A DNA stretch of 52,666 bases from positions 1 to 52,666 of the IMG/VR virus record IMGVR_UViG_3300036781_000342; one strand, written 5' to 3'. A program made the position numbers and the translations under genes. Within the stretch, counting starts at the first letter, position 1. Every line of letters begins with the position of its first letter. The DNA comes from a virus. Taxonomy: Duplodnaviria > Caudoviricetes. A model generated the notes under the pieces. The model worked only from the letters and a program-made list of their open reading frames with translations. It was not told where the DNA came from and searched no databases. Below, in pieces: positions 12,110 to 31,603 of this stretch.

Positions 12110-12682
12110 ATGCGAATTATCGGTGTGGACCCCGGCTGCTACGGGGCGCTCGGATGCTTGGATGGCAGTCGATGGCACAGCGTCATCGACATGCCGATCA
12201 ACAAAATCCGACGCGGAAAATCAGACAAAGCCGAGGTGAACGGCTACGCCTTGGCCGAGATTCTGCGCCAGTTATCCCCAGACGTCGTGGTGCTCGAGCA
12301 GGTCGGCGGCATGACGGGGCAATCGGCCAGCGCGGCGTTCAACTTCGGTCGCGCCGCCGGCGCCCCCGAGTACGTGGCCAAGGCGCTCGGGATCCGCGTC
12401 GATATGGTGGCGCCGATCACCTGGAAGAAGGCGTTGCAAGTGAACCCCGGCAAGGATGGCAGCAGGGCGATGGCTCAGCGCCTGTGGCCGGCGATGGCTC
12501 GCCACTTCGAGCGCAAGAAGGACGACGGGCGGGCGGAAGCGGCGCTCATCGCACATTGGTTTTGGCTGAAGAACGGAGGCAGTGATGACGGCGTGCGCGA
12601 CCTGCGGAAAGACCGACCTGTCGAGAGGTTGCACGATTTGCGATCTGCAAGCGACTGCGACGACGGAATATTCGCTCGCTAA
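12110..12682 (+). CDS. RuvC-like Holliday junction resolvase
   Basis: IIGVDPG, VVLEQV, AFNFG, P.TWKK, DDGRAEAALIA. Confidence 0.88.
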   Translation: MRIIGVDPGCYGALGCLDGSRWHSVIDMPINKIRRGKSDKAEVNGYALAEILRQLSPDVVVLEQVGGMTGQSASAAFNFGRAAGAPEYVAKALGIRVDMVAPITWKKALQVNPGKDGSRAMAQRLWPAMARHFERKKDDGRAEAALIAHWFWLKNGGSDDGVRDLRKDRPVERLHDLRSASDCDDGIFAR

Positions 12683-13127
12683 CCCGCCGAAGTGCGTCGC
12701 CGTGTGCTACTGCACGGAGCGGTGCGTGGCGGCGGGCCGATGCGTTCGTGAAACCGAATGGGGAAAGCAGCGCGAAAGCTGGGGCCGGTCGTGCGTCGGG
12801 CAGCCCGGTGATCGGCAAACGCTCCCCGTCGACTCCCAGGCCCGCAAGGACACGCCCGTCTTCAGCGGCTTCCTGAAATACTTCCCGCTCGCGACGGCCG
12901 AGATCGCCCGCCTGTCGAAGGCCGGCAACGACAAGCACAACCCCGGCCAACCGCTCCACTGGAGCCGCGGCAAGAGCAACGACCATCTCGACTGCGTCGC
13001 GCGCCACCTGCTCGAGGCCGGCACGATCGACAGCGACGACGGCCACCGCCACAGCACCAAGCTCGCCTGGCGCGCGCTCGCCAACCTGCAGCTCGAACTG
13101 GAGGCTGCGGCGCGAAGCACGAATTGA
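12582..13127 (+). CDS. dATP/dGTP diphosphohydrolase-like (DUF5664) protein with a Cys-rich N-terminus; start uncertain
   Basis: FPLATAEIARLSKAGNDKH..W..DCVARHL..DSDDGHRH..LAWRALANL. Confidence 0.7.
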   Translation: MMTACATCGKTDLSRGCTICDLQATATTEYSLANPPKCVAVCYCTERCVAAGRCVRETEWGKQRESWGRSCVGQPGDRQTLPVDSQARKDTPVFSGFLKYFPLATAEIARLSKAGNDKHNPGQPLHWSRGKSNDHLDCVARHLLEAGTIDSDDGHRHSTKLAWRALANLQLELEAAARSTN

Positions 13128-13137
13128 TTTTTCACGC

Positions 13138-13166
13138 TTGCGTTGTCTGATCGTCTGACATACATT
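13138..13166 (+). promoter_or_regulatory. Promoter with GTCTGA boxes in the spacer
   Basis: TTGCGT-17-TACATT; two GTCTGA in the spacer and two TCAGAC downstream. Confidence 0.55.
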
Positions 13167-13221
13167 CAGACGGTCAGACGAACCTGAGTACCTGAAGAAC
13201 CTGAGAGACTGACGCCCCTCG

Positions 13222-14499
13222 ATGCCAACCCTCTTCCCACATCAGATCACCGGAGCTTCGTTCCTTGCCTCGCGCAAGCACGCTCTGCTGGCGGATGAAC
13301 AAAGAGTTGGAAAAACGGCCGCAGCCGTCACGGCCTGCGATTATGTCCTCGCGCGGAAAGTCCTCTGCATCACGAAGGCGTCAGCCCGTGCGCAGTGGGG
13401 CCGAGAGTTCCAGACCTGGGGCTTTCCGCGCGAGGTGCGCGTCATCTACAGCCGCAGCGACGAGCCAACCGGCGACGTGACCGTGCTCGGTTGGCCAACG
13501 ATCATCGACAAGACGATGCTCGCCAAGCTGCAGCAACCCTGGGACGTCATCATCCTCGACGAGTGCCACGAAGCCAAGGGCGTCGGCACGCAACGCACGG
13601 CGGCGGTCTTCGGCCCCGAAGGACTCTATAAACATGCCCGCTTTGTCTGGTGTCTGTCGGGAACTCCCATCCCCAACGCCCCCAACGACCTCTACCCTAT
13701 GTTGGCCGCACTTGAGCCCGAGCGGTTGGCCGGCATATCCGATCATGACGACTTCGTCCGCCGTTACTGCGTTGTCCGCCCCCGGCGCATCAACGGCGTT
13801 CTTCGCAACGTCATCAAGGGCGGAAAAAACCTCGAAGACCTGAACCCGCGCGTCGCCGGCTTCTGGTTGCGGCGCACGCAGCAGGACGTCGGCATCCGGC
13901 GCCCCATCTTCAGCACGCTCGCCATTCACGTCGATCGCCAGCCTGACGAACCCGAGGACATGGCAGCGGTCCTCGACGCCATTGAGACGGGCGAGACCCA
14001 GAGCGTCGAGATGCACATGGGGCCGCTGCGCCGGCTGACCGGCTTGGCCAAAGCCAAGGGCGTCTGCGAGGCGGTGCGCGAGAAATTCGACGAAGGGCTC
14101 GACAAGGTCGTGCTCATGGCCTGGCACACCGAAGTCATCGACGCGCTGTGGAAGGGCCTCAAGATGTACGGCTGCGTCGGCATCGACGGTCGCACGCCCG
14201 CGGCGCGCCGCGACGAGCAGGTGCGCCTGTTCCAGACGAGCGCGCTGCATCGCGTCTTCATCGGCAACATTCAGGCGGCAGGCGAGGCCATCGACCTCTC
14301 GGCCGCCGCAGAGCTTTGGTTCGTCGAGTGCTCGTTTACGCCCGCCCACATGGCGCAGGCGGCGATGCGCGTCACGAACCTCAACCAGAAACGGCAGGCG
14401 CTCGTCCGCGTCTGTGCGTTGGCCGGGTCTATCGACGAAGCAATCGCGTCGATCCTCACCCGGAAAGTCGAGACCATCAAAACCATCATGGAGCACTGA
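13222..14499 (+). CDS. SNF2-like SF2 helicase
   Basis: LADEQRVGKT, DECH, LSGTP, AGEAIDL, QAAMR. Confidence 0.92.
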   Translation: MPTLFPHQITGASFLASRKHALLADEQRVGKTAAAVTACDYVLARKVLCITKASARAQWGREFQTWGFPREVRVIYSRSDEPTGDVTVLGWPTIIDKTMLAKLQQPWDVIILDECHEAKGVGTQRTAAVFGPEGLYKHARFVWCLSGTPIPNAPNDLYPMLAALEPERLAGISDHDDFVRRYCVVRPRRINGVLRNVIKGGKNLEDLNPRVAGFWLRRTQQDVGIRRPIFSTLAIHVDRQPDEPEDMAAVLDAIETGETQSVEMHMGPLRRLTGLAKAKGVCEAVREKFDEGLDKVVLMAWHTEVIDALWKGLKMYGCVGIDGRTPAARRDEQVRLFQTSALHRVFIGNIQAAGEAIDLSAAAELWFVECSFTPAHMAQAAMRVTNLNQKRQALVRVCALAGSIDEAIASILTRKVETIKTIMEH

Positions 14500-14500
14500 T

Positions 14501-15356: not shown

Positions 15357-16652
15357 ATGACAAGCCCCAGCCTGCACGCGACTCGCGACCACGCCCTTTG
15401 GTCGGCATCGGCGACCGCAAGAAACTGGCAATGCCCTGGCGCATTGGCCCTCGGTCAAACCGTTCGACATCTGGACGTGGAGTCGGAAGCTGCAGGCTGG
15501 GGCACAGCGTGTCACGACCTTTCTGAGAAGTGCCTGCGCACCGGCCTCGACGCAGCCGATAGGATCGGGGAAACCATCAAGACGAAGAGCCACAGCTTCG
15601 ACGTCGACGAAGAGATGGCCGAGTGTGCGCAGGTCTACATCGACTATGTGCGCGATCAGTCTGGCAAGGCCGCGATCGCCTCCATGCTGGATCGCTACGG
15701 CGACCTCTTGTTCCTTGAGACTCGTTTCTCTCTCGAAAAGCTCAACCCGCCCTTCGACGCGGGCGGCACCTGCGACGCCATCGTTTACAGCCCGGCCGAG
15801 AAGCTGCTCGAGGTCATCGACCTAAAGGGCGGCCGCGGCGTTCGCGTGGAGGTCACAGAGAACAAGCAGCTCCGCACCTACGCCCTCGGCGCCATGCTCG
15901 CCCACCCCGAACTGAAGGTCGATCGCGTCAAGTCGACCATCGTCCAGCCGCGCATGGAGCACAAGGACGGCCGCATCCGCTCGGAGACACTGCACGTCAC
16001 AGAGTTGATGGAGTGGACGGCCGAACTGTGCGCCGCGATGGAGCGGTCGGCCGCCGCGATAGCGAAGCACACCGACATCAAGGGCGACTTGATGCGGGAC
16101 GCTTGGGCCGAACGCTGGCTGGAGCAGGGCGCCCACTGCACCTTCTGCCCCGCGGCCGGCATCTGCCCGGCGCTGCAAGCCAAGGCGATGGCCACCGCTA
16201 ACGCCTTCTTCAACGACAGCGGCGCAACCGTCATCCGAAACCAGCCCGAAGATCTCGACCCGGCCCGCATCGGGCAGGTGCTCGACGGCGCCGACGACCT
16301 GCAGAACTGGCTCAACGCCGTCCGCGCGCTCGGAACACGCCTGGCTCAGACAGGCACCGATATCCCCGGCCACTACCTCGCCGAGAAGCACGGCCACCGG
16401 AAATTCCGAGATCCCGACACAGCACCCGCCGCGCTCGAGCTGCTGGGCCTGTCGCACGCCGACATCTACGCCGCGCCGAAGCCCAAGACGCCCGCCCAGG
16501 TCGAGAAGGCGCTGGGTGCCAAGCGCCTGAAGAGCATCAAGGAGCATTTGGACGCCCTCGTCCACAAGCCCGTCACCGGAGTCACCCTCGTATCGTCAGC
16601 CAAGAGCAGCAAGCCGCCGGTGAAGGCTGCTGCCGAGAGGTTCTTCACATGA
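15357..16652 (+). CDS. DUF2800 Cas4-like PD-(D/E)XK exonuclease
   Basis: SASAT..CPG, GTACH, GGTCD, VIDLKGG, QLRTYALG, HCTFC..ICP. Confidence 0.9.
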   Translation: MTSPSLHATRDHALWSASATARNWQCPGALALGQTVRHLDVESEAAGWGTACHDLSEKCLRTGLDAADRIGETIKTKSHSFDVDEEMAECAQVYIDYVRDQSGKAAIASMLDRYGDLLFLETRFSLEKLNPPFDAGGTCDAIVYSPAEKLLEVIDLKGGRGVRVEVTENKQLRTYALGAMLAHPELKVDRVKSTIVQPRMEHKDGRIRSETLHVTELMEWTAELCAAMERSAAAIAKHTDIKGDLMRDAWAERWLEQGAHCTFCPAAGICPALQAKAMATANAFFNDSGATVIRNQPEDLDPARIGQVLDGADDLQNWLNAVRALGTRLAQTGTDIPGHYLAEKHGHRKFRDPDTAPAALELLGLSHADIYAAPKPKTPAQVEKALGAKRLKSIKEHLDALVHKPVTGVTLVSSAKSSKPPVKAAAERFFT

Positions 16653-16890: not shown

Positions 16891-17568
16891 ATGTCAAACG
16901 CACGGTCACAGGACTTCCGCATCATGGGTATGCGGGCCGCCTTCCTCAACGTCTTCAAGCCACAGAAGATCGAGGACAACGGCGTCATCAAGCTGAAGTA
17001 CAACGCCACGCTGCTGTGGCCCAAGGGCAACGACCTGATCGGCTTCATGGTCGACGGCAAGCAGTTCAACGTCATGGAAGAGGCCGCCCGTGTCGCCACC
17101 GAGCAGTGGGGCGACAAGGCCGGCGAGCTGATCAAGAGCGGCGTCATCAAGAGCCCGTTCCTCGACGGCGACGGCCCGCAAGGCGTGTCGAAGAAGACCG
17201 GCGAGCGCCACAAGGGCTTCGCAGGCCACCGCTTCATCCGCGCGTCGGCCAACGAGGACCGCAAGCCCGACCTGACGCTCAACGTGCTCGGCGCCGACAA
17301 CAAGCTGGTGCGTGCGACGGATCCCAACAGCATCTACTCGGGCTGCCTGGTGAACGTCGTCGTCAACCTCTACGGCTGGGAGCACGCCAAGAACGGCAAG
17401 GGCCTGTCGTTCGGCCTGTCGGCTGTCCAGTTTGCCGGCGACGGTGAGCGTCTGGGCGGTAGTGGCGGCGCCAATGCCGACAGCTTCTTCGAGGGCGTGA
17501 AGGCCCCCGATGCGGCCGCGGCCAAGGCTGTCGCCGAGGGCGCCGGGGCGGGCGGTCTTTTCGCCTAG
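16891..17568 (+). CDS. DUF2815 / Enc34-like single-stranded DNA-binding protein
   Basis: PFLDGD, IYSGCLVN, NGKGLSFGLSAVQFAGDGERLGG. Confidence 0.9.
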   Translation: MSNARSQDFRIMGMRAAFLNVFKPQKIEDNGVIKLKYNATLLWPKGNDLIGFMVDGKQFNVMEEAARVATEQWGDKAGELIKSGVIKSPFLDGDGPQGVSKKTGERHKGFAGHRFIRASANEDRKPDLTLNVLGADNKLVRATDPNSIYSGCLVNVVVNLYGWEHAKNGKGLSFGLSAVQFAGDGERLGGSGGANADSFFEGVKAPDAAAAKAVAEGAGAGGLFA

Positions 17569-18061: not shown

Positions 18062-18658
18062 TTGCACGACTGTATGATCGACCTCGAAACATGGGGCACC
18101 CGGCCGGGCTCTGCCCTGCGCTCCATCGGCGCCGTTATGTTCGACCCCGCCGGCGGCGACATCGGCGCGGAGTTCTACGTCAACGTCGACCGCGAGTCCT
18201 GCCTCAAGGCAGGGCTGCACATCGACCCGTTGACGGTCGAGTGGTGGGCGAAGCAGTCCGCGGAGGCCCGCCAGGGCCTGCTCGTCGACCCCAAGCCCCT
18301 CAACGACGCCTTGCACGCCTTCAACGTCTGGTGGGAGGTAAACCGCGGCATCCGCATCTGGAGCCACGGCGCAAACTTCGACCAGCCCATCCTCGACGCG
18401 GCCTACCACGCCGGCGGCGCCGTGATCAGCCCGTGGAAGTTCTGGGACAGCCGCTGCACGCGGACGGTCTACGACATCGCGGGCATCGACGCTCGCAAGG
18501 CGCTCTTCCTCAAGGGCGGCGTGGCGCACAACGCGCTCGACGACGCTCGGGTGCAGGCCCGCGCGGTCCAGGCCGCTATGCGGCGCATCACCGTCGGCAG
18601 TTCCTGGGCGTCGCCGCCCGTCACCACCATCAGCAAGAACAGCGGAGTCTTCGAATGA
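18062..18658 (+). CDS. DEDDh 3'-5' exonuclease (Rv2179c/DUF5051-like)
   Basis: MIDLET, SIGAV, WSHGANFD, HNALDDA. Confidence 0.9.
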   Translation: MHDCMIDLETWGTRPGSALRSIGAVMFDPAGGDIGAEFYVNVDRESCLKAGLHIDPLTVEWWAKQSAEARQGLLVDPKPLNDALHAFNVWWEVNRGIRIWSHGANFDQPILDAAYHAGGAVISPWKFWDSRCTRTVYDIAGIDARKALFLKGGVAHNALDDARVQARAVQAAMRRITVGSSWASPPVTTISKNSGVFE

Positions 18659-18984
18659 CACAAGACAGCGTGGGCATCGGTCACAACAGCAACACCGTCG
18701 TAATTGACGGTGACAAACTGGCGAAGCTCGCCAAAAAAACTAGCGCGGGCGGCATCAGCGCCGATCGCCTGAAGAGCTTCGTCGAGCGCATCGAACGGCT
18801 CGAGGAAGAGCAGAAGAGTCTCGCCGAGGACAAGCGCGACATCTACAGCGAGGCGAAGGGCGTCGGCTACGACGTCAAGACGATCCGCAAGGTCGTCGCA
18901 CTGCGCAAGATGGATGCTGCCGATCGCGACGAGGCCAACGCGCTGCTCGACACGTACTGCCACGCGCTTGGAGTGTTCGGCTGA
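18655..18984 (+). CDS. GapR-like (DUF2312) DNA-binding protein
   Basis: LKSFVERIERLEEE..DIYSEAKGVGYDVKTIRKVVALRK. Confidence 0.92.
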   Translation: MTQDSVGIGHNSNTVVIDGDKLAKLAKKTSAGGISADRLKSFVERIERLEEEQKSLAEDKRDIYSEAKGVGYDVKTIRKVVALRKMDAADRDEANALLDTYCHALGVFG

Positions 18985-19358: not shown

Positions 19359-19573
19359 TGTTCCTCCCCGACAACACCATCGGCTGGCTCAAGTACGCAA
19401 CCGCCGCGCCTGCGGCACGTCGGGGCCGTAAGGCAGCCAGAACCGACACCTGGCACCGCGTCGGCGTGGTCTACCGCATCGCCGGCTCGCACACCTACGT
19501 CGTCGAGAAGAACCGCACGCGGTTCCGCATCGACCGTGGCGACGTGTTGGTTGTGGTGCGGCCGAGCGAATGA
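19358..19573 (+). CDS. Small hypothetical protein
   Basis: TGATG coupling; GGAGG RBS. Confidence 0.6.
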   Translation: MFLPDNTIGWLKYATAAPAARRGRKAARTDTWHRVGVVYRIAGSHTYVVEKNRTRFRIDRGDVLVVVRPSE

Positions 19574-20223
19574 TCGCTGCGCTCTTCGTCGAGACTGGCG
19601 GTTGCTACTACGGCCTGCCCGGCGTGGACCCCTGGGACGAGGCGCGCGACGCGCGTCTCTACCCCGGATCCCGCCCCGTCGTGTGCCACTCGCCTTGCCC
19701 GCGCTGGGGCGAGATGTGGTTTGGCCAGCCGCTGACGGTGAAGCGCACCGGCGTCCGCAAGAAGAAGGGCGACGATGGCGGTTGTTTCAAGGCTGCGCTG
19801 GCCGCTGTTCGCAAGTGGGGTGGAGTGTTGGAGCATCCGAAGGGGTCGCACGCCTGGAAGCATTTCGGGCTGAAAGAACCGCCCGTCGACGGTGGTTGGG
19901 TACAGGCCGACGATCACGGCGGTTGGACCTGCTGCGTCGAGCAGCGACCCTATGGCCATTACGCGCGCAAGCCGACGTGGCTGTACGCTTGCTGGGCCGC
20001 GCTGCCCGAACTGGCGTGGGGGCGAAGCGAGCCGCAGTACGACCCCAAGGTGGTCGAACGTATGGGCCTGAAGCGCGCGAAGCGGCTCGGCGAAGTGGGC
20101 GCCCGCGGCGGCGGTACAGACAGCAGCCCGCGCATCGCCACACCGGAGCGCTTCCGCAACGTCCTGATCGCCATAGCTATGTCCGCGGCGTCTGACGTCT
20201 GTCGCATTGGGGTGTTCGCGTGA
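19570..20223 (+). CDS. Cytosine methyltransferase-like protein (short phage type)
   Basis: AALF, HSPC, VLEHP, ARKPTWL; motif I degenerate. Confidence 0.6.
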   Translation: MIAALFVETGGCYYGLPGVDPWDEARDARLYPGSRPVVCHSPCPRWGEMWFGQPLTVKRTGVRKKKGDDGGCFKAALAAVRKWGGVLEHPKGSHAWKHFGLKEPPVDGGWVQADDHGGWTCCVEQRPYGHYARKPTWLYACWAALPELAWGRSEPQYDPKVVERMGLKRAKRLGEVGARGGGTDSSPRIATPERFRNVLIAIAMSAASDVCRIGVFA

Positions 20224-20450
20224 CCGTCCTCCACAGCCAATCCGACACCCGCGACGACCGCACCAAGTGCGGCGTCGAAGGCATCCAGATCGCACTCGGC
20301 GGGCGGCTTGCGCTGCTGTCGCCAGGCCGATGCGCCTTCAAGCTGGCGTTCGAAGGCGAGCAGGTGACGTGCGCGACGTGCGTCGCAGGCGTCCGCACGC
20401 TGCGCGGGGTGCGGACGATGGGCTGGAAGCGGTTGTTGGGGGACGTATGA
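20220..20450 (+). CDS. Small Cys-containing hypothetical protein
   Basis: Coupled at both ends; TKCG..VTCATC. Confidence 0.55.
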   Translation: MTVLHSQSDTRDDRTKCGVEGIQIALGGRLALLSPGRCAFKLAFEGEQVTCATCVAGVRTLRGVRTMGWKRLLGDV

Positions 20451-22737: not shown

Positions 22738-22959
22738 CTGCCTCGCAAAGTCATCCGTCAACACTCCAACCAACGTGGGTTGAGTTCGCCGCCTCCGACA
22801 ACGATGCGAATCGCGCTCCCGTTGCTTCGTCGTGTCGACGCCATGGCGGACAGAGCGAAATACCGCACGAGTCGTTCGTGGCTGATCGCCAAGTACATTG
22901 AGGATGGCCTGGCGCGCGACGGCGACAAGGTGGTTGAGCCGACGGGGGTGTTCGAATGA
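22738..22959 (+). CDS. Ribbon-helix-helix DNA-binding protein (probable CTG start)
   Basis: AAGGAG 7 nt before CTG; TTMRIALPLLRRVDAMA..SRSWLIAKYIEDGL. Confidence 0.7.
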   Translation: MPRKVIRQHSNQRGLSSPPPTTMRIALPLLRRVDAMADRAKYRTSRSWLIAKYIEDGLARDGDKVVEPTGVFE

Positions 22960-23847: not shown

Positions 23848-24050
23848 ATCCCTTCGCTTGGTTCGCCATAGCCCTCTTAGCTGGCGGTTTCACTTGGTTT
23901 TGCGCTTCAGAGGACACCCGCACCCGTCAGTACGTCGCCGACTGCGACCAGCAGGGTGGCCGCGTGGTCCGTATGTACCTGCAGCAACACATGCGCTGGA
24001 TGCAGTGCGTTCACGGCCTCGAAGTCGTGACACTGCCGCAAGACCGATGA
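23844..24050 (+). CDS. Small membrane-anchored protein
   Basis: N-terminal TM, C..GG..C; ATGA overlaps. Confidence 0.6.
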   Translation: MNPFAWFAIALLAGGFTWFCASEDTRTRQYVADCDQQGGRVVRMYLQQHMRWMQCVHGLEVVTLPQDR

Positions 24051-24337
24051 CCCTCGACGAACTCCGCGCCGACCGGCCCAACCTCGGCTTCGCCGTCTAC
24101 GCCTACGAGCCTGGCAAGCCCGTGACGCTGGAGATCCACGACGCCGACGGCCAGACCTACAGCGTCACGACACCGACGCTCGAGGCGGCGATCGGCGTTG
24201 CGTTTCCGTCTGTTGTTTCAAGGGTGCCGTCCGGCGACGAGTCGCACTCGTCGTCGCTGCGGCCGCGGCGCTACTCGCCTTCAGTGGCTGAGGAAGCGGA
24301 CGGCCCCGTTGAAACAACAGGCGATGTGTTTTCGTAG
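24047..24337 (+). CDS. Hypothetical protein ending GDVFS
   Basis: ATGA overlap; LGFAVYAYEPGKPVTLE. Confidence 0.65.
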   Translation: MTLDELRADRPNLGFAVYAYEPGKPVTLEIHDADGQTYSVTTPTLEAAIGVAFPSVVSRVPSGDESHSSSLRPRRYSPSVAEEADGPVETTGDVFS

Positions 24338-24566: not shown

Positions 24567-24743
24567 GTGCCTGACCAACAGCCGCCGCCCCACCAATGCC
24601 AATACTGCGGGCGGGACATGGCGCGCGAGAGCCACAAGCTCGACTGCCGGATCGTGCGCGACATCGACGGCATTGAAGGCTACCTAGACATCCCGGCGTT
24701 CCTGGATGTGCGGCGTGGTAAGCAGAGCGACGTGTTTGACTAG
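24567..24743 (+). CDS. Small Zn-binding protein with an FtsZ C-terminal-like YLDIPAFL motif (start 24558 or 24567)
   Basis: CQYC..H..C; YLDIPAFL; ends SDVFD. Confidence 0.6.
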   Translation: MPDQQPPPHQCQYCGRDMARESHKLDCRIVRDIDGIEGYLDIPAFLDVRRGKQSDVFD

Positions 24744-24946: not shown

Positions 24947-25660
24947 TTGACCCTTCTGTTAGGTGACTGTCGCGACGTCCTGCCGACGCTGGAACTCGCC
25001 GACGCCGCAATCACAGACCCGCCATACGGCGACACGAGCCTGGAGTGGGATCGCCGTGTAGATGGTTGGGTGGCGGTGTTGGCGCGGGCGCTCAAGCCGG
25101 CGGCCAGTGTGTGGGTGTTCGGCAGCTTGCGCTTCCTCGTGCCGGTCTTTGCCGAGTTGGAAGCGGCCGGCTTTCGCTACAGCCAGGACATCGTTTGGCA
25201 TAAGCAAAACGGCACTGGCTTCCACGCCGACCGCTTCCGGCGTGTCCACGAGCACGCGGCGATGTTCTACCGGGGTGCGTGGTCCGACGTCTACCACGAC
25301 ACGCAGTACACAGCCGACGCGACGGCGCGGACAGTGCGTCGGAAGAAGCGGCCAGCGCATACCGGCCACATCGAAGCGTCGCACTACGTCAGCCACGACG
25401 GCGGCCCGCGCATGATGCGGAGCGTGTTGGACGTCCGTAACGAACACGGCCGAGCGGTTCACCCGACCCAAAAGCCTGTCGAACTGATAGAGCCTCTGGT
25501 GCGCTACAGCGTGCCGCCCGGCGGCTTGGTCGTAGACCCGTTCGCCGGCAGTGCTTCGACCTGCCTCGCAGCGATAAGCGCCGGCCGACGCTACGTCGGC
25601 ATCGAGAAAAACGCCGACTATTTCGCAATGGCGCAACAGCGGATTGGAGTCTTCCTGTGA
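24947..25660 (+). CDS. N6-adenine/N4-cytosine DNA methyltransferase (beta class)
   Basis: GDC, TDPPY, HPTQKP, DPFAGSAST. Confidence 0.93.
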   Translation: MTLLLGDCRDVLPTLELADAAITDPPYGDTSLEWDRRVDGWVAVLARALKPAASVWVFGSLRFLVPVFAELEAAGFRYSQDIVWHKQNGTGFHADRFRRVHEHAAMFYRGAWSDVYHDTQYTADATARTVRRKKRPAHTGHIEASHYVSHDGGPRMMRSVLDVRNEHGRAVHPTQKPVELIEPLVRYSVPPGGLVVDPFAGSASTCLAAISAGRRYVGIEKNADYFAMAQQRIGVFL

Positions 25661-27849
25661 CCGGCAATCCGTTCCGTTCGTTCTTCGATGCGGGCTATCA
25701 GCGCTTGATACCCGTGGTGCCACCCGGTGCGCCGCTGTCGCCAAACTCGTCGCTCGCAAAGCGCATGGAGCGCGACGCCACCAAGGATGCGCGCGGCAAG
25801 GCGCCTGGCGTGCTGGGTGGCGATGGTCTCTGGCGTGGCGTCGACTGGCTAAAGATCGTCGTAAGTGAGCAGCTGCTCGACGAGTGGAACAGCTGGCAAG
25901 CCGGCGTAGGCATCCGCACCGGCGCGGGTTTGGTGGCTGTCGACATCGACACGTTGGACCCACAGCTCGCCAAGATCGCCGACGACGCTGCGAGCGAACT
26001 GCTGGGGCCATCGCCGGCGCGCATCGGCCGCGCCCCGAAGACCCTGCGCGTCTACCGCTGCACCGAAGACCGGCCCTACCAGCGCGCAACCTTCGCCGGC
26101 GGCATCGTCGAGTTGCTGACAGAGGGCAAGCAATTCGTCGCGTCCGGCATCCACCCCAAGACCGGCAAGCCCTACGAGTGGCAGCCTTACGCCATGCCGT
26201 TCACGGCCCTGGTCGAAGTCACTGGCGTCCAGCTCGACGCCTTCTTCGCCCGCCTGACCGAGATCCTGCCCGCAACCGAGATCAGCACCGAAGCCACAGC
26301 AGCGCGCGCCGACGTCGACCAGGCGCAGCTTGCAGGCAATCCAGACACGGTGGACGAAGCCGTGGCCGCGCTCCCAAACAACTTCGAGGACCGCGACAGC
26401 TACATCCGCGTCGGCGCTGCCATCAAGGCCGCCATCCCTGACGACCCGGAACACGGCCTCGAACTCTTCCAGGATTGGGCCAGCAAGTGGCACGACTACG
26501 ACGCCGACAACACAGCATCGGATTGGAAGCGGCTCAAGCCACCTTTCAGCGTCGGTGCGCAGTACCTCTACAGCCTCGCCAGCGAGCACGGCGACTTCAG
26601 CACCGCAGATGCATGGTTCACCGGCTCTAGCGCACCAGCGGGCTCCGCAGGTGTAGCAAAGACGATTTGGGATGAGGCACCGGCCGAGGCAGAGCCTGAG
26701 TTGCCGCCGCTCCAGTGGGCAAACACGCGCACCTGGCGCCAGACCGAAGCGCCCAAGCGGGAGTGGGAGGTAGACGGCTTCATCCCGCGCGGCGTCGTCA
26801 CGCTGGTCTATGGTGAGGGTGGCGTCGGCAAGACGCTCGTGATGCACCAGTACGCCGCGTGCGCCGCCGCAGGCGTCAAATGGCTGGGCCAACCGACCCG
26901 GCCGGCGCGCGTCATGTGCGTGTTCTGCGAGGACGACGAAGACGAGCTCCACCGGCGCCATCAGGCGATCATCAAGGCGTGCGGCATCGAGGGCGATTCC
27001 GTCGACGACAACCTGCGCATCATCTCACGCGCCGGCGAAGACAACCTGATCGTTGGCTTCAGCCGCTCGGGCGCTGCGATGCAGAAGACCGCTTTTTGGC
27101 ATCAGCTCAACCGCGAAGCCGATGCGTGGCAGCCCGACGTGCTGATCCTCGACACGATCGCCGACATCTATGGCGGGTCGGAGATAGACCGTATGCAGGT
27201 CAACCAGTTCGTGAAGGTCGGGCTTGGCGGCCTGGCGCCCAAGAACAGCAAGCGGTCGGTGATAGCCCTGGGCCATCCATCGGTGGCCGGTAGGTCTGAG
27301 GGGCGCAGCGGATCCACAGCCTGGTCCAACGCCTCGCGCCATAGAAACTACATGCGCCGGCCCAAGGGCAAGGAAAAGGGCAACGAGCGCGAGATAGAGG
27401 GGATGAAGACCAACCGCGGCGCGGTCGGCAACCTGTTGCAGGTCGAGTGGAAGGCCGGCGCGTTCTCGATCGTCGCCTCGTCTACCCAGATAGACCTAAA
27501 CGCTTTTAAAGAGGCTGCGGTGGCCAGTGTGGCGCGGGAGCAGACGACAGAGGGTCGCGAGGAAGCCGCTGTGCTGGCGGCTGTGGCGGCCGCGCGCACG
27601 GCGTGCCTGCCGCTGGGCATGTCGGCCCGGTCGTACAACACGTATGCCCCGCGCGCCCTGCGCGTCGCGTTCCCTGAGATCATGCGCCTAGTGCGCGGCG
27701 ATGACGCCATCGTTGAAGACGTGATGCGCCGACTACTGAGCAGCGGTCGTGTCAGGGCGGCAACCTGGCGGAACCCCGCGCGCAGGCACGACGTGTCGGG
27801 CTATGAGGTCGTTACGGCCGCATCGGCAGGGACCGACATATTCAATTGA
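25657..27849 (+). CDS. Primase-polymerase / PriCT-2 / AAA_25 (RepA-like) helicase fusion
   Basis: VAVDID, SGIHPKTGKPYEW; GEGGVGKT; CEDD; LILDT; GSTAW. Confidence 0.92.
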   Translation: MTGNPFRSFFDAGYQRLIPVVPPGAPLSPNSSLAKRMERDATKDARGKAPGVLGGDGLWRGVDWLKIVVSEQLLDEWNSWQAGVGIRTGAGLVAVDIDTLDPQLAKIADDAASELLGPSPARIGRAPKTLRVYRCTEDRPYQRATFAGGIVELLTEGKQFVASGIHPKTGKPYEWQPYAMPFTALVEVTGVQLDAFFARLTEILPATEISTEATAARADVDQAQLAGNPDTVDEAVAALPNNFEDRDSYIRVGAAIKAAIPDDPEHGLELFQDWASKWHDYDADNTASDWKRLKPPFSVGAQYLYSLASEHGDFSTADAWFTGSSAPAGSAGVAKTIWDEAPAEAEPELPPLQWANTRTWRQTEAPKREWEVDGFIPRGVVTLVYGEGGVGKTLVMHQYAACAAAGVKWLGQPTRPARVMCVFCEDDEDELHRRHQAIIKACGIEGDSVDDNLRIISRAGEDNLIVGFSRSGAAMQKTAFWHQLNREADAWQPDVLILDTIADIYGGSEIDRMQVNQFVKVGLGGLAPKNSKRSVIALGHPSVAGRSEGRSGSTAWSNASRHRNYMRRPKGKEKGNEREIEGMKTNRGAVGNLLQVEWKAGAFSIVASSTQIDLNAFKEAAVASVAREQTTEGREEAAVLAAVAAARTACLPLGMSARSYNTYAPRALRVAFPEIMRLVRGDDAIVEDVMRRLLSSGRVRAATWRNPARRHDVSGYEVVTAASAGTDIFN

Positions 27850-28231: not shown

Positions 28232-28262
28232 ACAAATGAAAAGCCCCGCACTGTGGCGGGGC
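28232..28262 (-). terminator. Intrinsic terminator of the leftward block, exact inverted copy of 27873-27903
   Basis: 31/31 reverse-complement identity. Confidence 0.75.
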
Positions 28263-28284
28263 CTAGGGTTTCATTTGTATGTCG

Positions 28285-28652: not shown

Positions 28653-28653
28653 G

Positions 28654-29240: not shown

Positions 29241-29438
29241 TGTCTGTCTCCCGTTGTCTGACGTGTGACACTCTAGGCGTGTGAAATCGCTCAATCCTTG
29301 GCCATGCGGCAGAGCCGCAGTGCTACGATCAAGGCGAGTGCAAAGGCGATTAGGTAGGCTGTCAGCATTGTCTGTCTCCTGTCGGTTGACGCTCAATGAG
29401 GCTGTGACGCGAACGCCACAGCCCTGGGAGCGCCAGCG

Positions 29439-29642
29439 CTACTTGCCAGCGCTGCCTGCGCCACCGTCGCCACCGACGCCGCTGGTTGCCTTGGACGGGT
29501 CGCCGCACGAATAGCCGCTGTTGACGTACAGCGTCTTGCCGTCGCGCGTGACGGTGCAGGTGCCCATGGACGGGTCCGGCAGGCTTTCGCCGCAAGCGGC
29601 AAGGGTGACGGCAGCGACGGCGATTGCGATGATCTTCGACAT
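29439..29642 (-). CDS. Small lipoprotein
   Basis: Lipobox LAAC; AAGGAG RBS; two further Cys. Confidence 0.75.
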   Translation of the reverse strand: MSKIIAIAVAAVTLAACGESLPDPSMGTCTVTRDGKTLYVNSGYSCGDPSKATSGVGGDGGAGSAGK

Positions 29643-29759
29643 GATGGTTCTCCTTTGCTGGCCGCGGGATTGCGGCTTTGAGCCGTTGGCGCTCAATGAA
29701 GCGTCACCTTGCGGGTGACGCTCTAGGAACGTCAGGGGTCTGTCGTGTGGTGTCTGGTG

Positions 29760-29975
29760 TCAGACGCTGGATGCGTGCGAAATCGGCTCAAGGTTGACGC
29801 CAAACAGGCGGGCCATGACGCCAGCGAGGAAGGCGCGGTAGCACTCGCGACCATCCTGCATCGCCAGGAACATTTCGCCTGCAGTGGCGGGCCGGTCTGC
29901 GCCAATGGCGTACCACTGGGTGAGTAGCGGCGTGATGTCGGTGTGGAAGCCGTTCGGCTCTTTGCGCAGGGTCAT
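29760..29975 (-). CDS. Hypothetical protein
   Basis: AGGA RBS. Confidence 0.55.
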   Translation of the reverse strand: MTLRKEPNGFHTDITPLLTQWYAIGADRPATAGEMFLAMQDGRECYRAFLAGVMARLFGVNLEPISHASSV

Positions 29976-30051
29976 TCGTCTTTCCTGTTGTTGCTGGCAC
30001 TCACTAGAGGGGCGGCGGTTTGGAGCCGCGCGCCACTCAGGCGATGGTCAG

Positions 30052-30315
30052 CTATTCGGCGTCGGGGTCGACCAAGGTGATTTGGTCTTCGGTCCATTCG
30101 TCGCCGTTCTCGTCGAGGAACACCGTCTTGCCGTCGCGTGTGACGGTTTCCATGGCGTCCCAGAACATCTCCGAGCCACCTTCGTGGTCATAGCCAATCG
30201 AACCGTCTTCGTTGCGATAGAAGCACGCGATCTCAGCGCGAGCCGGGCACATCTCGTACGTACCGAGGATGGCGGCGCCGGTTGGGCTGATAGCTGCGAA
30301 TGTCTTTGTGGTCAT
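30052..30315 (-). CDS. Small acidic hypothetical protein
   Basis: GGGAG RBS after the repeated promoter. Confidence 0.7.
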   Translation of the reverse strand: MTTKTFAAISPTGAAILGTYEMCPARAEIACFYRNEDGSIGYDHEGGSEMFWDAMETVTRDGKTVFLDENGDEWTEDQITLVDPDAE

Positions 30316-30398
30316 TGCGATGTCTCCCGTTGCGATGTCCACTTGTATGTCACTTGTATGTCTGATGTCAACACGAATCAGACGATTATTTTTGACAG

Positions 30399-30608
30399 TC
30401 AGCCGCGCTCGGCCACTCGTTTCGCGTCATCAAGGCGACGGATGTGTGCTGCGAGCGTGCGCCAGTCTCGCGCGCCTCCCGGCCACGTAACGGCGCGCTG
30501 AACGTTGTAAGAACCGGGCCGGTCACGGTAGACGATGGCTTGCGCCACACCGTCCTTGTCGTGCGCGACGGAGCGACCGTCTTTCGTTGTCCATGTCCAA
30601 GCTGGCAT
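30399..30608 (-). CDS. Hypothetical protein
   Basis: AGGGGG RBS after the repeated promoter. Confidence 0.65.
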   Translation of the reverse strand: MPAWTWTTKDGRSVAHDKDGVAQAIVYRDRPGSYNVQRAVTWPGGARDWRTLAAHIRRLDDAKRVAERG

Positions 30609-30690
30609 TGATGCCCCCTGTTTGCGATGTCCATTTGTATGTCACTTGTATGTCTGATGTCAACACGTATCAGACGATTATTTTTGACGG

Positions 30691-31014
30691 TCAGGCCGCC
30701 ATGATCGCGGCCTTGGCCGCTTCCTGATTGTCGAAATCGACGAAGTATGCGGCCTTGTCGAAAAGGCGCTGGGCGTGCGCTTGCGGCTCGCCGACGATCG
30801 TCATCACCTTCGTTGCGCCGTAGCGGTTGGAGTAGCTGTAGACAGGCGATGCAGGGTAGGCGCGGTATTTCTTGAGCAGGCCATCGCGCGTTGCACTCTC
30901 CGCTCGGACGATGCGGATGTTGTGCCGCTTCGTTGGCTCACGCCCAGAGCCGAAAGCGAAATGCGTCACATGCGTTTCGATGATGGCGCAGATATCGCCT
31001 TTCTTGATTGTCAT
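30691..31014 (-). CDS. Hypothetical protein
   Basis: GGGAG RBS after the repeated promoter. Confidence 0.7.
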   Translation of the reverse strand: MTIKKGDICAIIETHVTHFAFGSGREPTKRHNIRIVRAESATRDGLLKKYRAYPASPVYSYSNRYGATKVMTIVGEPQAHAQRLFDKAAYFVDFDNQEAAKAAIMAA

Positions 31015-31153
31015 CGTCGATACTCCCGTTGCGATGTCCATTTGTATGTCACTTGTCGTTACAAGCGTCAACAGACATCAGACAGACAAATTGACGGAAT
31101 AGCTGAACAACGTTAACTTATCGCTGTTCAGTTATGAATCGGAGTGACGGAAT

Positions 31154-31603
31154 TTGCCCGACAAGACAGGCCGACTAGGCGCACAAGAGCGAACGTTTGT
31201 GCAAGCCATGGCCGCTACAGGTGACAAGCGATACGCGGCCGAGAAGGCGGGTTATTCCCAACCGCTCACATCGGCCAGCAAGGCACTCGCGCGGCCGGCG
31301 GTGCACGATGCAATCGTCAAGCTGCAGCAACAGCGGATGACGAATGAGGCGCTACCGCTGGCCGTGCAGGCGTTCATTGACGTTCTGAGCGATCCCAAAA
31401 CAGGCGCAATGGCCAAGATTGCGGCCGCAAAGGTCGTGTATGAGAAAACAGCGACGCAGACAGACACGGCAGACAAGCCGATTCATGAGCTGACGTTGGC
31501 AGAGCTCAACGCGCGCATCGTGGCGCTGTCCGACCAGGCTCGAGCGGTCGACGTTGAGATCCTCGAGCAAGAGCCGGCCGCCTCGAGCGGCGTTTTCGAG
31601 TGA
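31154..31603 (+). CDS. Terminase small subunit-like HTH protein
   Basis: QERTFVQAM..AAEKAGYS..ASKALARPAV. Confidence 0.75.
   Translation: MPDKTGRLGAQERTFVQAMAATGDKRYAAEKAGYSQPLTSASKALARPAVHDAIVKLQQQRMTNEALPLAVQAFIDVLSDPKTGAMAKIAAAKVVYEKTATQTDTADKPIHELTLAELNARIVALSDQARAVDVEILEQEPAASSGVFE

What the first reader, a model, noticed from the sequence alone, without database searches (positions are those of the whole stretch)
12110..31603. About 11 unrelated prophage proteins end in the same [G/D]-[V/I/L]-F-x C-terminal tail
Seen: resolvase DGIFAR, SSB GGLFA, exonuclease SGVFE, GapR-like LGVFG, MTase-like IGVFA, RHH TGVFE, 24047 ORF GDVFS, 24567 ORF SDVFD, N6/N4 MTase IGVFL, primase-helicase TDIFN, TerS SGVFE; weaker cases are DUF2800 ERFFT and 47202 ORF PSTFE. 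Codons vary synonymously (GGA/GGG/GGC/GGT, GTC/GTG/GTT, TTC/TTT), which points to selection on the peptide. The tail often sits on a linker beyond the folded domain and is absent from capsid, portal, tail and lysis proteins. Known: C-terminal Phe tails act as docking motifs (SSB DDDIPF, clamp-binding motifs) or degrons. Inference: a phage-wide tag that sends DNA-metabolism proteins to one hub such as a clamp, protease or replication compartment. Caveat: where genes are coupled, the G-V part doubles as the next gene's GGAG/GGGG RBS; this does not explain the Phe, or the SSB, primase and TerS cases.
Basis: partly seen in the sequence, partly recalled or inferred. Interest (0 to 1): 0.88.

Follow-up and report, generated by a model that had tools for sequence, protein, structure and literature searches.

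The report
Shared C-terminal Phe tag on prophage proteins
About a third of this prophage's early DNA-handling proteins end in the same three-residue tail (small residue, Val/Ile/Leu, Phe, one more residue), a tag shared by a whole clade of related phages that probably docks these proteins onto the phage's own DNA polymerase.

Summary
Ten + strand proteins between 16891 and 31603 end in [GD]-[VIL]-F-x-stop: 10 of 725 + strand ORF ends against 0 of 952 on the - strand, and 10 of 29 early genes against 0 of 19 late genes.

The tail is a clade trait. In 20 loci whose polymerase is at least 43% identical to the window's, 88 of 591 called genes end in [VIL]F-x. In 64 more distant loci the figure is 16 of 1728. 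A second collection gave 48 of 333 against 17 of 662.

Primase-helicases, methylases, GapR-like proteins and resolvase-like proteins carry the tail only inside the clade. Phe sits strictly at -2. Codons vary, and 38 of 88 tails have no overlapping start codon. Selection therefore acts on the peptide, not on an RBS.

The T7 gp2.5-type SSB carries the same tail. A co-fold places that tail on the phage family A polymerase (ipSAE 0.64, best control 0.01).

Best reading: a T7-like replisome docking tail that has spread to many early proteins. The hub is modelled for one tail only. The clamp and protease hypotheses were not tested.

The parts
16891..17568 (+). T7 gp2.5/Enc34-type ssDNA-binding protein, tail ...GAGAGGLFA
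   Evidence: Pfam PF10991, E=1.3e-24, domain ends at residue 201 of 225. Tail listed. Ten of 11 clade homologues end [GSNE]LF-x. Residues 217-225 form the modelled interface with the polymerase.
18074..18658 (+). Rv2179c-like 3'-5' exonuclease, tail SGVFE
   Evidence: Pfam PF16473, E=5.8e-46, domain ends at 168 of 194. Six of 6 clade homologues carry the tail. The stop overlaps the next start (ATGA).
18655..18984 (+). GapR-like DNA-binding protein, tail LGVFG
   Evidence: Pfam PF10073, E=4.5e-32, domain to residue 106 of 109. Seven of 7 clade homologues carry the tail against 0 of 6 outgroup homologues.
19570..20223 (+). Protein of unknown function (phrog_12600), tail IGVFA
   Evidence: No Pfam family. 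phrog_12600, E=1.2e-68. Tail listed.
22804..22959 (+). Small protein with uncertain start (ORF opens at 22609), tail TGVFE
   Evidence: Tail. No family found.
24047..24337 (+). Small protein, tail GDVFS; the next gene starts 9 nt downstream with its own GGAG after the stop
   Evidence: No family found.
24567..24743 (+). Small protein, tail SDVFD; the next gene starts 10 nt downstream with its own GGAG after the stop
   Evidence: The homologue in L001 ends SGVFD.
24947..25660 (+). N6/N4 DNA methylase, tail IGVFL
   Evidence: Pfam PF01555, E=1.7e-36. Four of 4 clade homologues carry the tail against 0 of 14 outgroup homologues.
25657..27849 (+). Prim-Pol/PriCT_2/AAA_25 primase-helicase, tail TDIFN
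   Evidence: Pfam hits. Eight of 8 clade homologues carry the tail against 0 of 13 outgroup homologues. In my gene list the next + strand gene starts 3,358 nt downstream; a 94-aa TTG ORF (27846-28130) does overlap the stop but has no coding signature.
31208..31603 (+).
   Evidence: No family in Pfam or PHROGs. All 6 clade homologues have Phe at -2: four end [VI]F-x and two end SPFD.
12110..12682 (+). Resolvase-like protein, out-of-register tail DGIFAR (Phe at -3)
   Evidence: The other 3 clade homologues end SVFA, DVFA and NVFD; 0 of 7 outgroup homologues carry the tail.
20447..22687 (+). Divergent family A DNA polymerase with no tail; proposed receptor of the tails
   Evidence: A profile of 15 clade polymerases matches the Klenow motif A, B and C regions (E=9e-7). 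The AlphaFold model has pLDDT 88.3 and a family A fold; best Foldseek match 7r0k_A, E=8.6e-14, with T7 gp5 entries 5ikn_C and 6p7e_D also matched. None of 19 clade polymerases carries the tail. The co-fold interface uses residues 114, 195-199 and 573-599.
47202..47747 (+). Late-region protein with an acidic C-terminal linker and a weak tail PSTFE
   Evidence: Its only homologue found (RHph_N65 1914-2525) ends DNLFK. No Pfam family.
15357..16652 (+). DUF2800/PD-(D/E)XK nuclease ending ERFFT: not this tail, but a family-specific C-terminal pattern
   Evidence: Pfam PF10926, E=3e-68. Clade homologues end ...KFFA...HFSVLD...QFFTVLD and similar; 1 of 15 matches [VIL]F-x.

Best explanation
The tail is a short C-terminal docking motif: a small or acidic residue (G/D/S/N), then V/I/L, then Phe, then exactly one more residue and the free carboxylate. 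It derives from the C-terminal tip of the phage's T7 gp2.5-type ssDNA-binding protein.

In T7, the tails of gp2.5 and of the gp4 primase-helicase both end with an aromatic residue and dock on the family A polymerase gp5. Here too, the SSB and the primase-helicase share the tip.

In this clade, mostly prophages of Hyphomicrobiales, the tip has lost its acidity and shrunk to three hydrophobic or small residues. It has also been acquired independently by many other early proteins: exonuclease, GapR, methylases, RusA, resolvase-like proteins and small ORFs.

The most likely receptor is the phage's own family A DNA polymerase. The model lays the tail as an extra strand against a beta-sheet insertion (residues 573-599) next to the exonuclease domain. 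The polymerase, or the replisome, would then act as a tool-belt for phage DNA-processing enzymes.

Shown: the motif, its strict position, its restriction to the clade, its independent gains, and its peptide-level conservation.

Modelled only: docking of the SSB tail on the polymerase.

Inferred: that the other tails use the same site, and what recruitment achieves.
For: (1) Enrichment. In the clade, 88 of 591 called genes end [VIL]F-x against 16 of 1728 in 64 distant loci (odds ratio 18.7, p=1.5e-38). In genome contigs the figures are 48 of 333 against 17 of 662 (p=7.5e-12).

(2) Strict register. Among clade genes, the number of residues after a [VIL]F pair is 1 in 88 genes, 0 in 2 and 2 in 2.

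(3) Peptide-level selection. Phe codons are TTC 71 and TTT 17, which equals the background of 81/19%. Position -4 is G 32, D 28, S 12, N 9, with Ser coded by both AGY and TCN. Position -3 is V 40, I 32, L 16. Residues change between close relatives while the motif stays: the primase-helicase has TDIFN in the window and VGVFG in L001.

(4) Independent gains. Tails are present in the clade and absent in outgroup homologues for the primase-helicase (8 of 8 against 0 of 13), methylase (4 of 4 against 0 of 14), GapR (7 of 7 against 0 of 6) and resolvase-like protein (3 of 4 against 0 of 7). Polymerase (0 of 19), SNF2 helicase (0 of 14), integrase (0 of 9) and repressor (0 of 8) never carry it.

(5) Link to the SSB tip. 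The SSB is of the Enc34/T7 gp2.5 type (PMC5686142, passages read). Outgroup SSBs end in acidic-aromatic tips (DDFLD, DDWG, DPLFA). In two outgroup lineages the primase-helicase shares the lineage's own tip. The first is DDWG with DEWGG in L025 and L026. The second is DDFLD or EDFLN with SEFLE or FDFLD on a D5-type primase-helicase, in 17 of 18 chi-like loci that hold both genes.

(6) Co-fold. The polymerase (15-row alignment) was folded with SSB residues 176-225 (8-row alignment). ipSAE was 0.64 (runs 0.64, 0.66, 0.55) and the best of 3 controls was 0.01. That mark was reached by 58 of 80 solved complexes and 2 of 110 mismatched pairs; these counts hold only roughly because my own alignments were used. 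The runs agree in at least 27% of contacts, and the partner's pLDDT is at least 48. The interface is SSB 217-225 with polymerase 114, 195-199 and 573-599.

(7) T7 precedent. The gp2.5 tail anchors on the front basic patch of gp5 (K587-R591), and PDB 6P7E holds a DTDF peptide that mimics the gp4 tail (PMC12339929, passages read).
Against: The co-fold is a model's confidence, not a measurement. The partner's own fold is uncertain (pLDDT about 50), and only the SSB tail was tried, because the cap is one job. A solved T7 polymerase-tail complex exists (6P7E), so some of the score may come from likeness to it, although sequence identity to T7 gp5 is about 12%.

The docking hairpin (LPSGR region) is conserved in outgroup polymerases too. 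The site therefore does not explain why only this clade spread the tag.

The net charge of the polymerase segment does not track the charge of the SSB tip across 47 distinct pairs (Spearman rho -0.13, p=0.40).

In 12 of 31 outgroup loci that hold both genes, the SSB and primase-helicase tips do not match.

It is not obvious why methylases, GapR or a possible packaging protein should ride on a polymerase.

No clade-specific receptor gene without a tail was found within 10 kb either side of the polymerase, so a host receptor remains possible.

Codon choice is partly shaped by overlapping starts and RBSs: GGG and GGA are enriched at -4, GGA at -1, and T at the wobble position of -3.

The gene calls are crude (longest ORF plus a GC3 filter), and the 43% clade boundary was placed after the data had been seen.
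Confidence: 0.42

Rival explanations
1. The tail docks on a different common receptor encoded by the phage: the ssDNA-binding cleft of the gp2.5-type SSB, the SNF2 helicase or the DUF2800 nuclease. In T7 gp2.5 and in the Enc34 crystal, the SSB's own tail lies in the OB-fold groove.
For: The Enc34 ORF6 C-terminus lies in the groove of a neighbouring molecule in the crystal, and the T7 tail competes with ssDNA (PMC5686142, passages and reference list read). SNF2 (0 of 14) and DUF2800 (1 of 15) are conserved across clade and outgroup and lack the tail, as a receptor would.
Against: None of these was tested in a co-fold. The one pair that was tested, polymerase with SSB tip, passed with a wide margin over its controls.
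Confidence: 0.17
2. The tail is a reduced beta-clamp-binding motif that tethers phage DNA enzymes to the host DnaN.
For: The last three residues of the clamp consensus QL[SD]LF resemble [SD][VIL]F. Several clamp-binding motifs are C-terminal (PMC11139829, passages read). The carriers are DNA-acting enzymes, as clamp clients are. A few tails look fuller, for example KQSDVFD in the window, and QEDIFG and QTIDLFA in RHph_N65.
Against: Gln stands at -6 in only 6 of 88 tails. Position -3 is Leu in 16 of 88 and Val or Ile in 72 of 88, whereas the defined motif needs L or M there (definition from PMC11139829). Clamp motifs work at internal, N-terminal or C-terminal places, whereas here exactly one residue follows Phe. 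The polymerase, the obvious clamp client, has no tail (0 of 19). Outgroup phages of similar G+C content (0.58-0.70; their hosts are unknown) lack the tag.
Confidence: 0.12
3. The tail is a C-terminal degron that hands early proteins to a host or phage protease, so that they are cleared on a timetable.
For: It is restricted to early genes (10 of 29 against 0 of 19 late genes). Its position relative to the free carboxylate is strict, as for C-terminal degrons such as the ssrA tag (recalled, not looked up here).
Against: No known degron of this form was found in my searches. The SSB and the primase-helicase are needed throughout replication. The SSB tip has an established docking role in the T7-type family (PMC5686142, PMC12339929).
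Confidence: 0.1
4. The pattern is a by-product or signal at the nucleic-acid or ribosome level: an RBS or spacer of the next gene, a termination-reinitiation context, or a recombination junction.
For: Fifty of 88 tails have a start codon overlapping the stop, against 227 of 503 other genes (p=0.049). GGG and GGA are enriched at -4, GGA at -1, and T at the wobble of -3.
Against: Thirty-eight of 88 tails have no overlapping start, and 227 genes with an overlapping start have no tail. In the window the SSB tail stands alone (next gene 79 nt downstream) and the 24337 and 24743 tails are followed by a separate GGAG after the stop. The primase-helicase and 31603 tails do carry a TTGA or GTGA at the stop, but no supported gene starts there. 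The DIF-type tails of RHph_N65 (GAYATYTTC) are not Shine-Dalgarno-like. The motif keeps its register to the stop, not to the next start: GapR has a -1 overlap where other genes have -4. Ser is coded by both AGY and TCN, and Phe codon use equals background.
Confidence: 0.06
5. There is no common receptor. Each tail folds back on its own protein's DNA-binding site as a base-mimicking, auto-inhibitory plug, as proposed for T7 gp2.5.
For: Of the ten carriers, the six with a family assignment are DNA-binding or DNA-processing proteins; four have no assigned function. The gp2.5 tail competes with ssDNA (reference cited in PMC5686142).
Against: Unrelated folds would not be expected to converge on one motif in one register. 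Lineage-wide shifts of the motif (GVF, DIF, SVF) across all carriers of a phage fit one shared partner or shared mutational drift, not ten separate pockets.
Confidence: 0.05

Closest known systems
Phage T7 replisome: C-terminal tails of gp2.5 (SSB) and gp4 (primase-helicase) docking on gp5 polymerase
   Same: The set of parts matches: a family A polymerase, a gp2.5-type SSB (PMC5686142) and a primase-helicase. The SSB and primase-helicase share a C-terminal aromatic tip. A model places the SSB tip on the polymerase, as T7 does at the front basic patch of gp5 (PMC12339929; PDB 6P7E is among the fold matches).
   Different: Phe is penultimate here, not last. The tip is not acidic (net charge 0 or -1 over the last 10 residues). 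It is carried by about ten proteins per genome rather than two, including methylases, GapR, RusA, resolvase-like proteins and small ORFs. The modelled site is a beta-sheet insertion (573-599) beside the exonuclease domain. Whether this corresponds to T7's patch was not established.
Phage T4: similar hydrophobic-acidic C-termini of gp43, gp55 and gp33 binding the gp45 sliding clamp
   Same: Several functionally different phage proteins share an interchangeable C-terminal motif on a flexible linker, and the motif takes them to one hub on DNA (PMC2988020, passages read).
   Different: T4 has three carriers, and its hub is a phage-encoded clamp. No clamp family appeared among the 40 window proteins scanned with Pfam.
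Bacterial beta-clamp-binding motifs (Q-phi-x-[LM]-[FL])
   Same: It is a short hydrophobic motif ending in an aliphatic residue plus Phe, often C-terminal, found on DNA enzymes.
   Different: Gln and the second-position aliphatic residue are missing in most tails. Val or Ile stands where Leu or Met is required. The register to the C-terminus is fixed.
Bacterial SSB C-terminal tip (acidic, ending in Pro-Phe; recalled)
   Same: It is a tip on a disordered tail that mediates protein docking, and it includes a key Phe.
   Different: In bacteria one protein, SSB, carries the tip and many partners have the pocket. Here many proteins carry the tip. Phe is not the last residue: only 2 of 591 clade genes end [VIL]F.

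Membership tests
T7-type replisome docking tails (gp2.5 and gp4 onto gp5) | A gp2.5-type OB-fold SSB with an unstructured C-terminal segment | tested here: met
   Pfam PF10991 (Enc34_ssDNA-bd), E=1.3e-24, covering residues 14-201 of 225. A Gly/Ala-rich tail follows. The family is structurally like T7 gp2.5 (PMC5686142).
T7-type replisome docking tails (gp2.5 and gp4 onto gp5) | The SSB and the primase-helicase share an aromatic C-terminal tip | tested here: met
   In the window the SSB ends GGLFA and the primase-helicase ends TDIFN. Five of 5 clade loci that hold both genes carry the tip on both. Phe is penultimate here, whereas in T7 it is the last residue.
T7-type replisome docking tails (gp2.5 and gp4 onto gp5) | The tail is strongly acidic | tested here: not met
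   The net charge of the last 10 SSB residues is 0 or -1 in 10 of 10 clade SSBs. In outgroup SSBs it is mostly -2 to -8.
T7-type replisome docking tails (gp2.5 and gp4 onto gp5) | The tail binds the family A polymerase | tested here: inconclusive
   The co-fold gave ipSAE 0.64 against a best control of 0.01. The partner's pLDDT was about 50 and the runs agreed in at least 27% of contacts. This is a model only, for one tail only.
T7-type replisome docking tails (gp2.5 and gp4 onto gp5) | The aromatic residue is essential for function | not testable with these tools
   This needs Phe-to-Ala mutants.
Beta-clamp-binding motif (Q-phi-x-[LM]-[FL] or Q-phi-x-[LM]-x-[FL]; PMC11139829) | Gln at motif position 1 | tested here: not met
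   Gln stands at -6 in 6 of 88 clade tails and at -7 in 5 of 88.
Beta-clamp-binding motif (Q-phi-x-[LM]-[FL] or Q-phi-x-[LM]-x-[FL]; PMC11139829) | Leu or Met immediately before the terminal Phe or Leu | tested here: not met
   Position -3 is Leu in 16 of 88 tails, Val in 40 and Ile in 32.
Beta-clamp-binding motif (Q-phi-x-[LM]-[FL] or Q-phi-x-[LM]-x-[FL]; PMC11139829) | Binds the hydrophobic pocket of DnaN | not tested
The contig holds no host genome.
T4-type clamp-binding C-termini (gp43, gp55, gp33 onto gp45) | A phage-encoded sliding clamp serves as receptor | tested here: not met
   No clamp family appeared among the 40 window proteins scanned with Pfam. Several small ORFs remain unassigned.
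Bacterial SSB-Ct tip | Phe is the very last residue, preceded by Pro and acidic residues (recalled) | tested here: not met
   Exactly one residue follows Phe in 88 clade genes; [VIL]F ends the protein in only 2 of 591.

The most novel reading that the evidence does not exclude
In this clade of temperate phages, a family A DNA polymerase, or another single receptor, works as a clamp-less tool-belt. A portable three-residue C-terminal tag ([GDSN]-[VIL]-F-x-COOH) evolved from the SSB tip and has been captured independently by a dozen unrelated early proteins: replication, recombination, methylation, nucleoid-binding and small unknown proteins. Much of the phage's DNA-processing machinery would thereby be concentrated at the replisome. 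This would be a phage-encoded linear-motif network comparable in breadth to the PCNA or beta-clamp client networks.
Probability: 0.33. Interest if true: 0.85.

Novelty: new variant of a known kind. Interest (0 to 1): 0.72.

Why it matters
Linear docking motifs are well charted in eukaryotes and for the bacterial clamp and SSB. In phages they are known only for two or three proteins at a time (T7, T4). Here one tag marks about 15% of all called genes, and about a third of the early genes, in a whole clade. The tag is short enough to evolve by point mutation at a stop codon, and in several families it is present only inside the clade.

If the hub is confirmed, three things follow:
- The tag gives a simple sequence rule for assigning many function-unknown early ORFs to the replisome neighbourhood.
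- It offers a natural system for studying how a motif network expands.
- It provides a handle, as a peptide or by Phe-to-Ala mutation, for dissecting the replication of temperate phages of Rhizobium, Bradyrhizobium, Rhodopseudomonas and related bacteria. Cultured material exists: phage RHph_N65, and the strains named.

Tried and rejected
RBS or coupling artefact: rejected. Overlapping starts are only slightly commoner at tails (50 of 88 against 227 of 503, p=0.049), and many tails stand alone.

Chance or composition: rejected. The rate expected from residue frequencies is about 0.6% (frequencies), and the outgroup rate is 0.93%.

Clade-specific receptor gene: I looked for a family that is present in the clade, absent outside it and has no tail, within 10 kb either side of the polymerase. 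Only the integrase and the repressor stood out. The other clade-restricted families carry the tail themselves.

Charge co-variation between the polymerase hairpin and the SSB tip: none (rho -0.13, p=0.40, 47 distinct pairs).

Clade-specific docking site: rejected. The hairpin is conserved in outgroup polymerases.

Residue-level match of the modelled site to T7's front basic patch: not obtainable. The profile search of PDB sequences aligned only the motif A, B and C regions to Klenow, and Foldseek gives no residue map.

Tools that gave nothing:
- The first genome-contig scan found nothing.
- No tRNA gene was found in the window.

Literature searches found no description of a shared penultimate-Phe tail in phages. 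Only the listings were read. Subscription journals are not covered and supplements were closed.

Full report
**What the window is.** The 52,666-bp contig is all that is held of its 'genome', and the tools treat it as a virus record. A tyrosine integrase (9790-10884, -) and an HTH repressor (10996-11454, -) lie just left of the rightward early genes. Those early genes run on the + strand from about 11.8 kb. Pfam hits to window proteins are:
- a dATP/dGTP diphosphohydrolase-like domain, an SNF2 helicase, a DUF2800/PD-(D/E)XK nuclease and DUF4406;
- an Enc34/T7 gp2.5-type SSB, an Rv2179c-like exonuclease, GapR, an N6_N4 methylase and a Prim-Pol/PriCT_2/AAA_25 primase-helicase;
- later in the contig, a lysozyme and a large terminase at 40175-41827.

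The 746-aa protein at 20447-22687 has no Pfam hit. A profile of 15 clade homologues matches the motif A, B and C regions of Klenow (E=9e-7). Its AlphaFold model (pLDDT 88.3, pTM 0.85) has a family A polymerase fold. The best match is phage G20c Pol I (7r0k_A, E=8.6e-14), and T7 gp5 entries 5ikn_C and 6p7e_D are also matched.

**The observation.** A mechanical scan of every ORF end found [GD][VIL]F-x-stop at 10 of 725 + strand ends and 0 of 952 - strand ends. In a hand-made gene list, 10 of 29 early + strand genes carry the tail against 0 of 19 late genes (p=0.0035). ERFFT and PSTFE are not the motif proper.

**Not an RBS artefact.** In the window, six tails sit at -4 or -1 stop/start overlaps. 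The SSB tail stands alone, with the next gene 79 nt downstream. The 24337 and 24743 tails are followed by a separate GGAG after the stop. The primase-helicase tail has no supported downstream gene: a 94-aa TTG ORF at 27846 overlaps its stop but has no coding signature. The 31603 tail has a GTGA at its stop, but no called gene starts there. Seven other coupled early junctions have no tail. GapR keeps the motif in register with its own stop although its overlap is -1 rather than -4. Across the clade, 50 of 88 tails have a start codon overlapping the stop, against 227 of 503 other genes. This is a slight excess (p=0.049), and 38 tails stand alone.

Overlaps do colour codon choice: GGG and GGA are enriched at -4, and GGA at -1. 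The wobble base of -3 is unexpectedly T-rich. I could not explain this last point.

**A clade trait.** The closest relative found, an IMG/VR contig (L001, polymerase 80% identical), has 8 exact and 2 near tails on the + strand and none on the - strand. Their residues differ from the window's: exonuclease GDVFA, primase-helicase VGVFG, SSB GNLFA, and the homologue of the 31603 ORF GDVFA. Rhizobium phage RHph_N65 (polymerase 48% identical) has 12 annotated CDS ending mostly in DIF-x. EBPR siphovirus 2 (43%) has 9 annotated CDS ending [SNG]VF-x, and two further hits in that record are not annotated CDS ends.

A polymerase-profile scan of IMG/VR then gave 79 loci. I applied one crude gene caller to all of them (longest ORF, GC3 filter, greedy tiling). 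In the window it finds 8 of the 10 tails.
- The 20 loci with a polymerase at least 43% identical have [VIL]F-x on 88 of 591 genes (14.9%).
- The 64 loci at 36% or less have it on 16 of 1728 genes (0.93%), and five of those 16 are SSBs (odds ratio 18.7, p=1.5e-38).

The 43% boundary was placed in the gap after the table had been seen. I then tested it on a second collection, GTDB genome contigs, with the boundary in the same gap. Loci at 42% or more gave 48 of 333; loci at 36% or less gave 17 of 662 (p=7.5e-12). The low group here is higher (2.6%). One Thauera contig (L118), whose polymerase match is about 3 kb long, has three tails and may belong with EBPR siphovirus 2. Named hosts of clade prophages are mostly Hyphomicrobiales: Rhodopseudomonas, Bradyrhizobium, Hyphomicrobium, Nitratireductor, Bosea and Aminobacter.

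**Register and composition.** In clade genes, exactly one residue follows a [VIL]F pair in 88 cases. Zero residues follow in 2 cases and two residues in 2. Position -4 is G 32, D 28, S 12, N 9. Position -3 is V 40, I 32, L 16. Position -1 is G 23, D 22, A 20, S 8, E 8. Positions -8 to -5 are rich in A, G, P, T, E and S. Phe codons match the background (TTC 81%). Ser uses both AGY and TCN. The loci that prefer Ile tend to have lower G+C than those that prefer Val, which fits drift among equivalent residues.

**Independent gains.** I clustered all called proteins. Families shared by clade and outgroup divide cleanly:

| Family | Clade, with tail | Outgroup, with tail |
|---|---|---|
| Polymerase | 0 of 19 | 0 of 63 |
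| SNF2 helicase | 0 of 14 | 1 of 56 |
| DUF2800 nuclease | 1 of 15 | 0 of 59 |
| Primase-helicase | 8 of 8 | 0 of 13 |
| N6_N4 methylase | 4 of 4 | 0 of 14 |
| GapR-like | 7 of 7 | 0 of 6 |
| Resolvase-like | 3 of 4 | 0 of 7 |
| SSB | 10 of 11 | 5 of 57 |

The integrase (0 of 9) and the repressor (0 of 8) also lack the tail in the clade. Clade-restricted families mostly carry it: RusA 6 of 6 (Pfam), the exonuclease 6 of 6, a 75-aa family 5 of 5, and the family of the 31603 ORF 4 of 6, with two more ending SPFD. The methylase shows how little change is needed. An outgroup homologue ends ...EKRIAAG and the window protein ends ...QQRIGVFL.

**Link to the SSB tip.** Enc34 ORF6, the type member of the SSB family, is structurally like T7 gp2.5 and has a disordered C-terminal segment (PMC5686142, passages read). 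In T7, the tails of gp2.5 and of the gp4 primase-helicase interact with the polymerase. The gp2.5 tail anchors on the front basic patch (K587-R591), and PDB 6P7E holds a DTDF peptide that mimics the gp4 tail (PMC12339929, passages read).

In the outgroup loci the SSB tips are acidic-aromatic (DDFLD, DDWG, DPLFA, DSLFG). In two lineages the primase-helicase shares its own lineage's tip:
- SSB DDWG with Prim-Pol/AAA_25 primase-helicase DEWGG, in L025 and L026;
- SSB DDFLD or EDFLN with SEFLE or FDFLD on an unrelated D5-type primase-helicase, in 17 of 18 closely related low-G+C (about 0.45) loci. These resemble the chi-like Salmonella phages found.

In 12 of 31 outgroup loci that hold both genes I saw no such match. 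In the clade the SSB tip is non-acidic (...GAGAGGLF-x) and the primase-helicase carries the same kind of tip (5 of 5 loci with both genes).

**Test of the hub.** The result was ipSAE 0.64 (runs 0.64, 0.66, 0.55) against a best control of 0.01. That mark was reached by 58 of 80 solved complexes and 2 of 110 mismatched pairs; these counts hold only roughly because my own alignments were used. The runs agree in at least 27% of their contacts, and the partner's pLDDT is at least 48.

The confident interface is exactly the tip (SSB 217-225, closest at 219-224). It lies against polymerase residues 114, 195-199 and 573-599. In the polymerase model, 574-601 is a set of beta strands within an insertion between motif B (about 463-478) and motif C (about 698-706). 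T7's patch lies between the same motifs by my recollection of the T7 motif positions, but I could not establish residue-level equivalence.

The hairpin (GFLWCRLPSGRCLAY) is conserved in outgroup polymerases too. Its charge does not track the charge of the tip. The model supports binding and does not show it. A solved T7 polymerase-tail complex exists, so likeness may contribute to the score.

**Reading.** The best-supported account is a T7-type docking tip that, in one clade, became short and hydrophobic and then spread to about a dozen early proteins per genome. All of them would be aimed at one receptor, most likely the phage polymerase. That the other nine tails use the same site is inference.

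The rivals are another phage receptor (SSB cleft, SNF2, DUF2800), the host beta clamp, a degron, a nucleic-acid-level signal, and auto-inhibition. The clamp reading fails the motif definition in most tails: Gln is in place in 6 of 88 and Leu at -3 in 16 of 88 (definition in PMC11139829). DnaN binding itself was not tested.

T4 offers the nearest functional parallel. The similar hydrophobic-acidic C-termini of gp43, gp55 and gp33 are interchangeable and bind gp45 (PMC2988020, passages read). That case has three carriers and a phage-encoded clamp.

**Novelty.** My literature searches found the T7 and T4 precedents and nothing about a penultimate-Phe tag shared by many phage proteins. Only listings and the passages cited were read, subscription journals are not covered, and supplements were closed. 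I rate the finding a new variant of a known kind.

Noticed in passing
window 15357-16652 and clade homologues (e.g. L002 18275-19528): The DUF2800 nucleases of the clade have their own conserved C-terminal pattern, distinct from the tag. It is a basic or polar residue followed by [HF]F and often x[VI]LD, for example KHFSVLD, QFFTVLD, EKFFA and ERFFT.
   Followed up: partly
window 15065-15352 and 17648-18007: Two small early proteins give weak, below-cutoff Pfam hits to the Acb2/Tad1 hairpin domain (E=4e-4 and 1.6e-3; 21 and 19 bits against a cutoff of 27). They could be anti-defence nucleotide sponges.
   Followed up: no
window 27850-31150: This 3.3-kb stretch after the primase-helicase has lower G+C (0.58-0.62), no ORF with a clear coding signature on the + strand and no tRNA. 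Several - strand ORFs lie at 28404-29696. RHph_N65 has - strand genes at the same place.
   Followed up: partly
window 31600-33400: No single long ORF spans this stretch; it holds several overlapping medium ORFs with no family hits.
   Followed up: partly
window 12702-13127, 18984-19358, 19570-20223, 24947-25660: The early region combines a dATP/dGTP diphosphohydrolase-like N-terminal domain, a DUF4406 protein (nucleoside deoxyribosyltransferase-like) and at least one DNA methylase. The polymerase model also matches DpoZ of phage phiVC8 (rank 3). No PurZ-like gene was seen among the proteins scanned, so a modified-base pathway is only a lead.
   Followed up: no
clade tails, codon -3: The wobble base of the aliphatic codon before Phe is unusually often T. 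ATT is used 18 times against ATC 9, where background ATC is 77%. CTT accounts for 8 of 16 Leu codons, where background is 10%. Overlapping starts do not explain this.
   Followed up: no
L118 (Thauera sp. MAG contig) and L003 (EBPR siphovirus 2): In both, the polymerase match is about 3 kb long, roughly 900 nt longer than in the window, which suggests an insertion such as an intein. L118 has three DIF/GIF tails although its best-segment identity is only 33%.
   Followed up: no
polymerase C-termini, all loci: Nearly all polymerases of the wider family end in a conserved basic tip, [FY][RK]KD or RYRKD (window ...KRLKKD). This is a different conserved C-terminus whose role is unknown.
   Followed up: no
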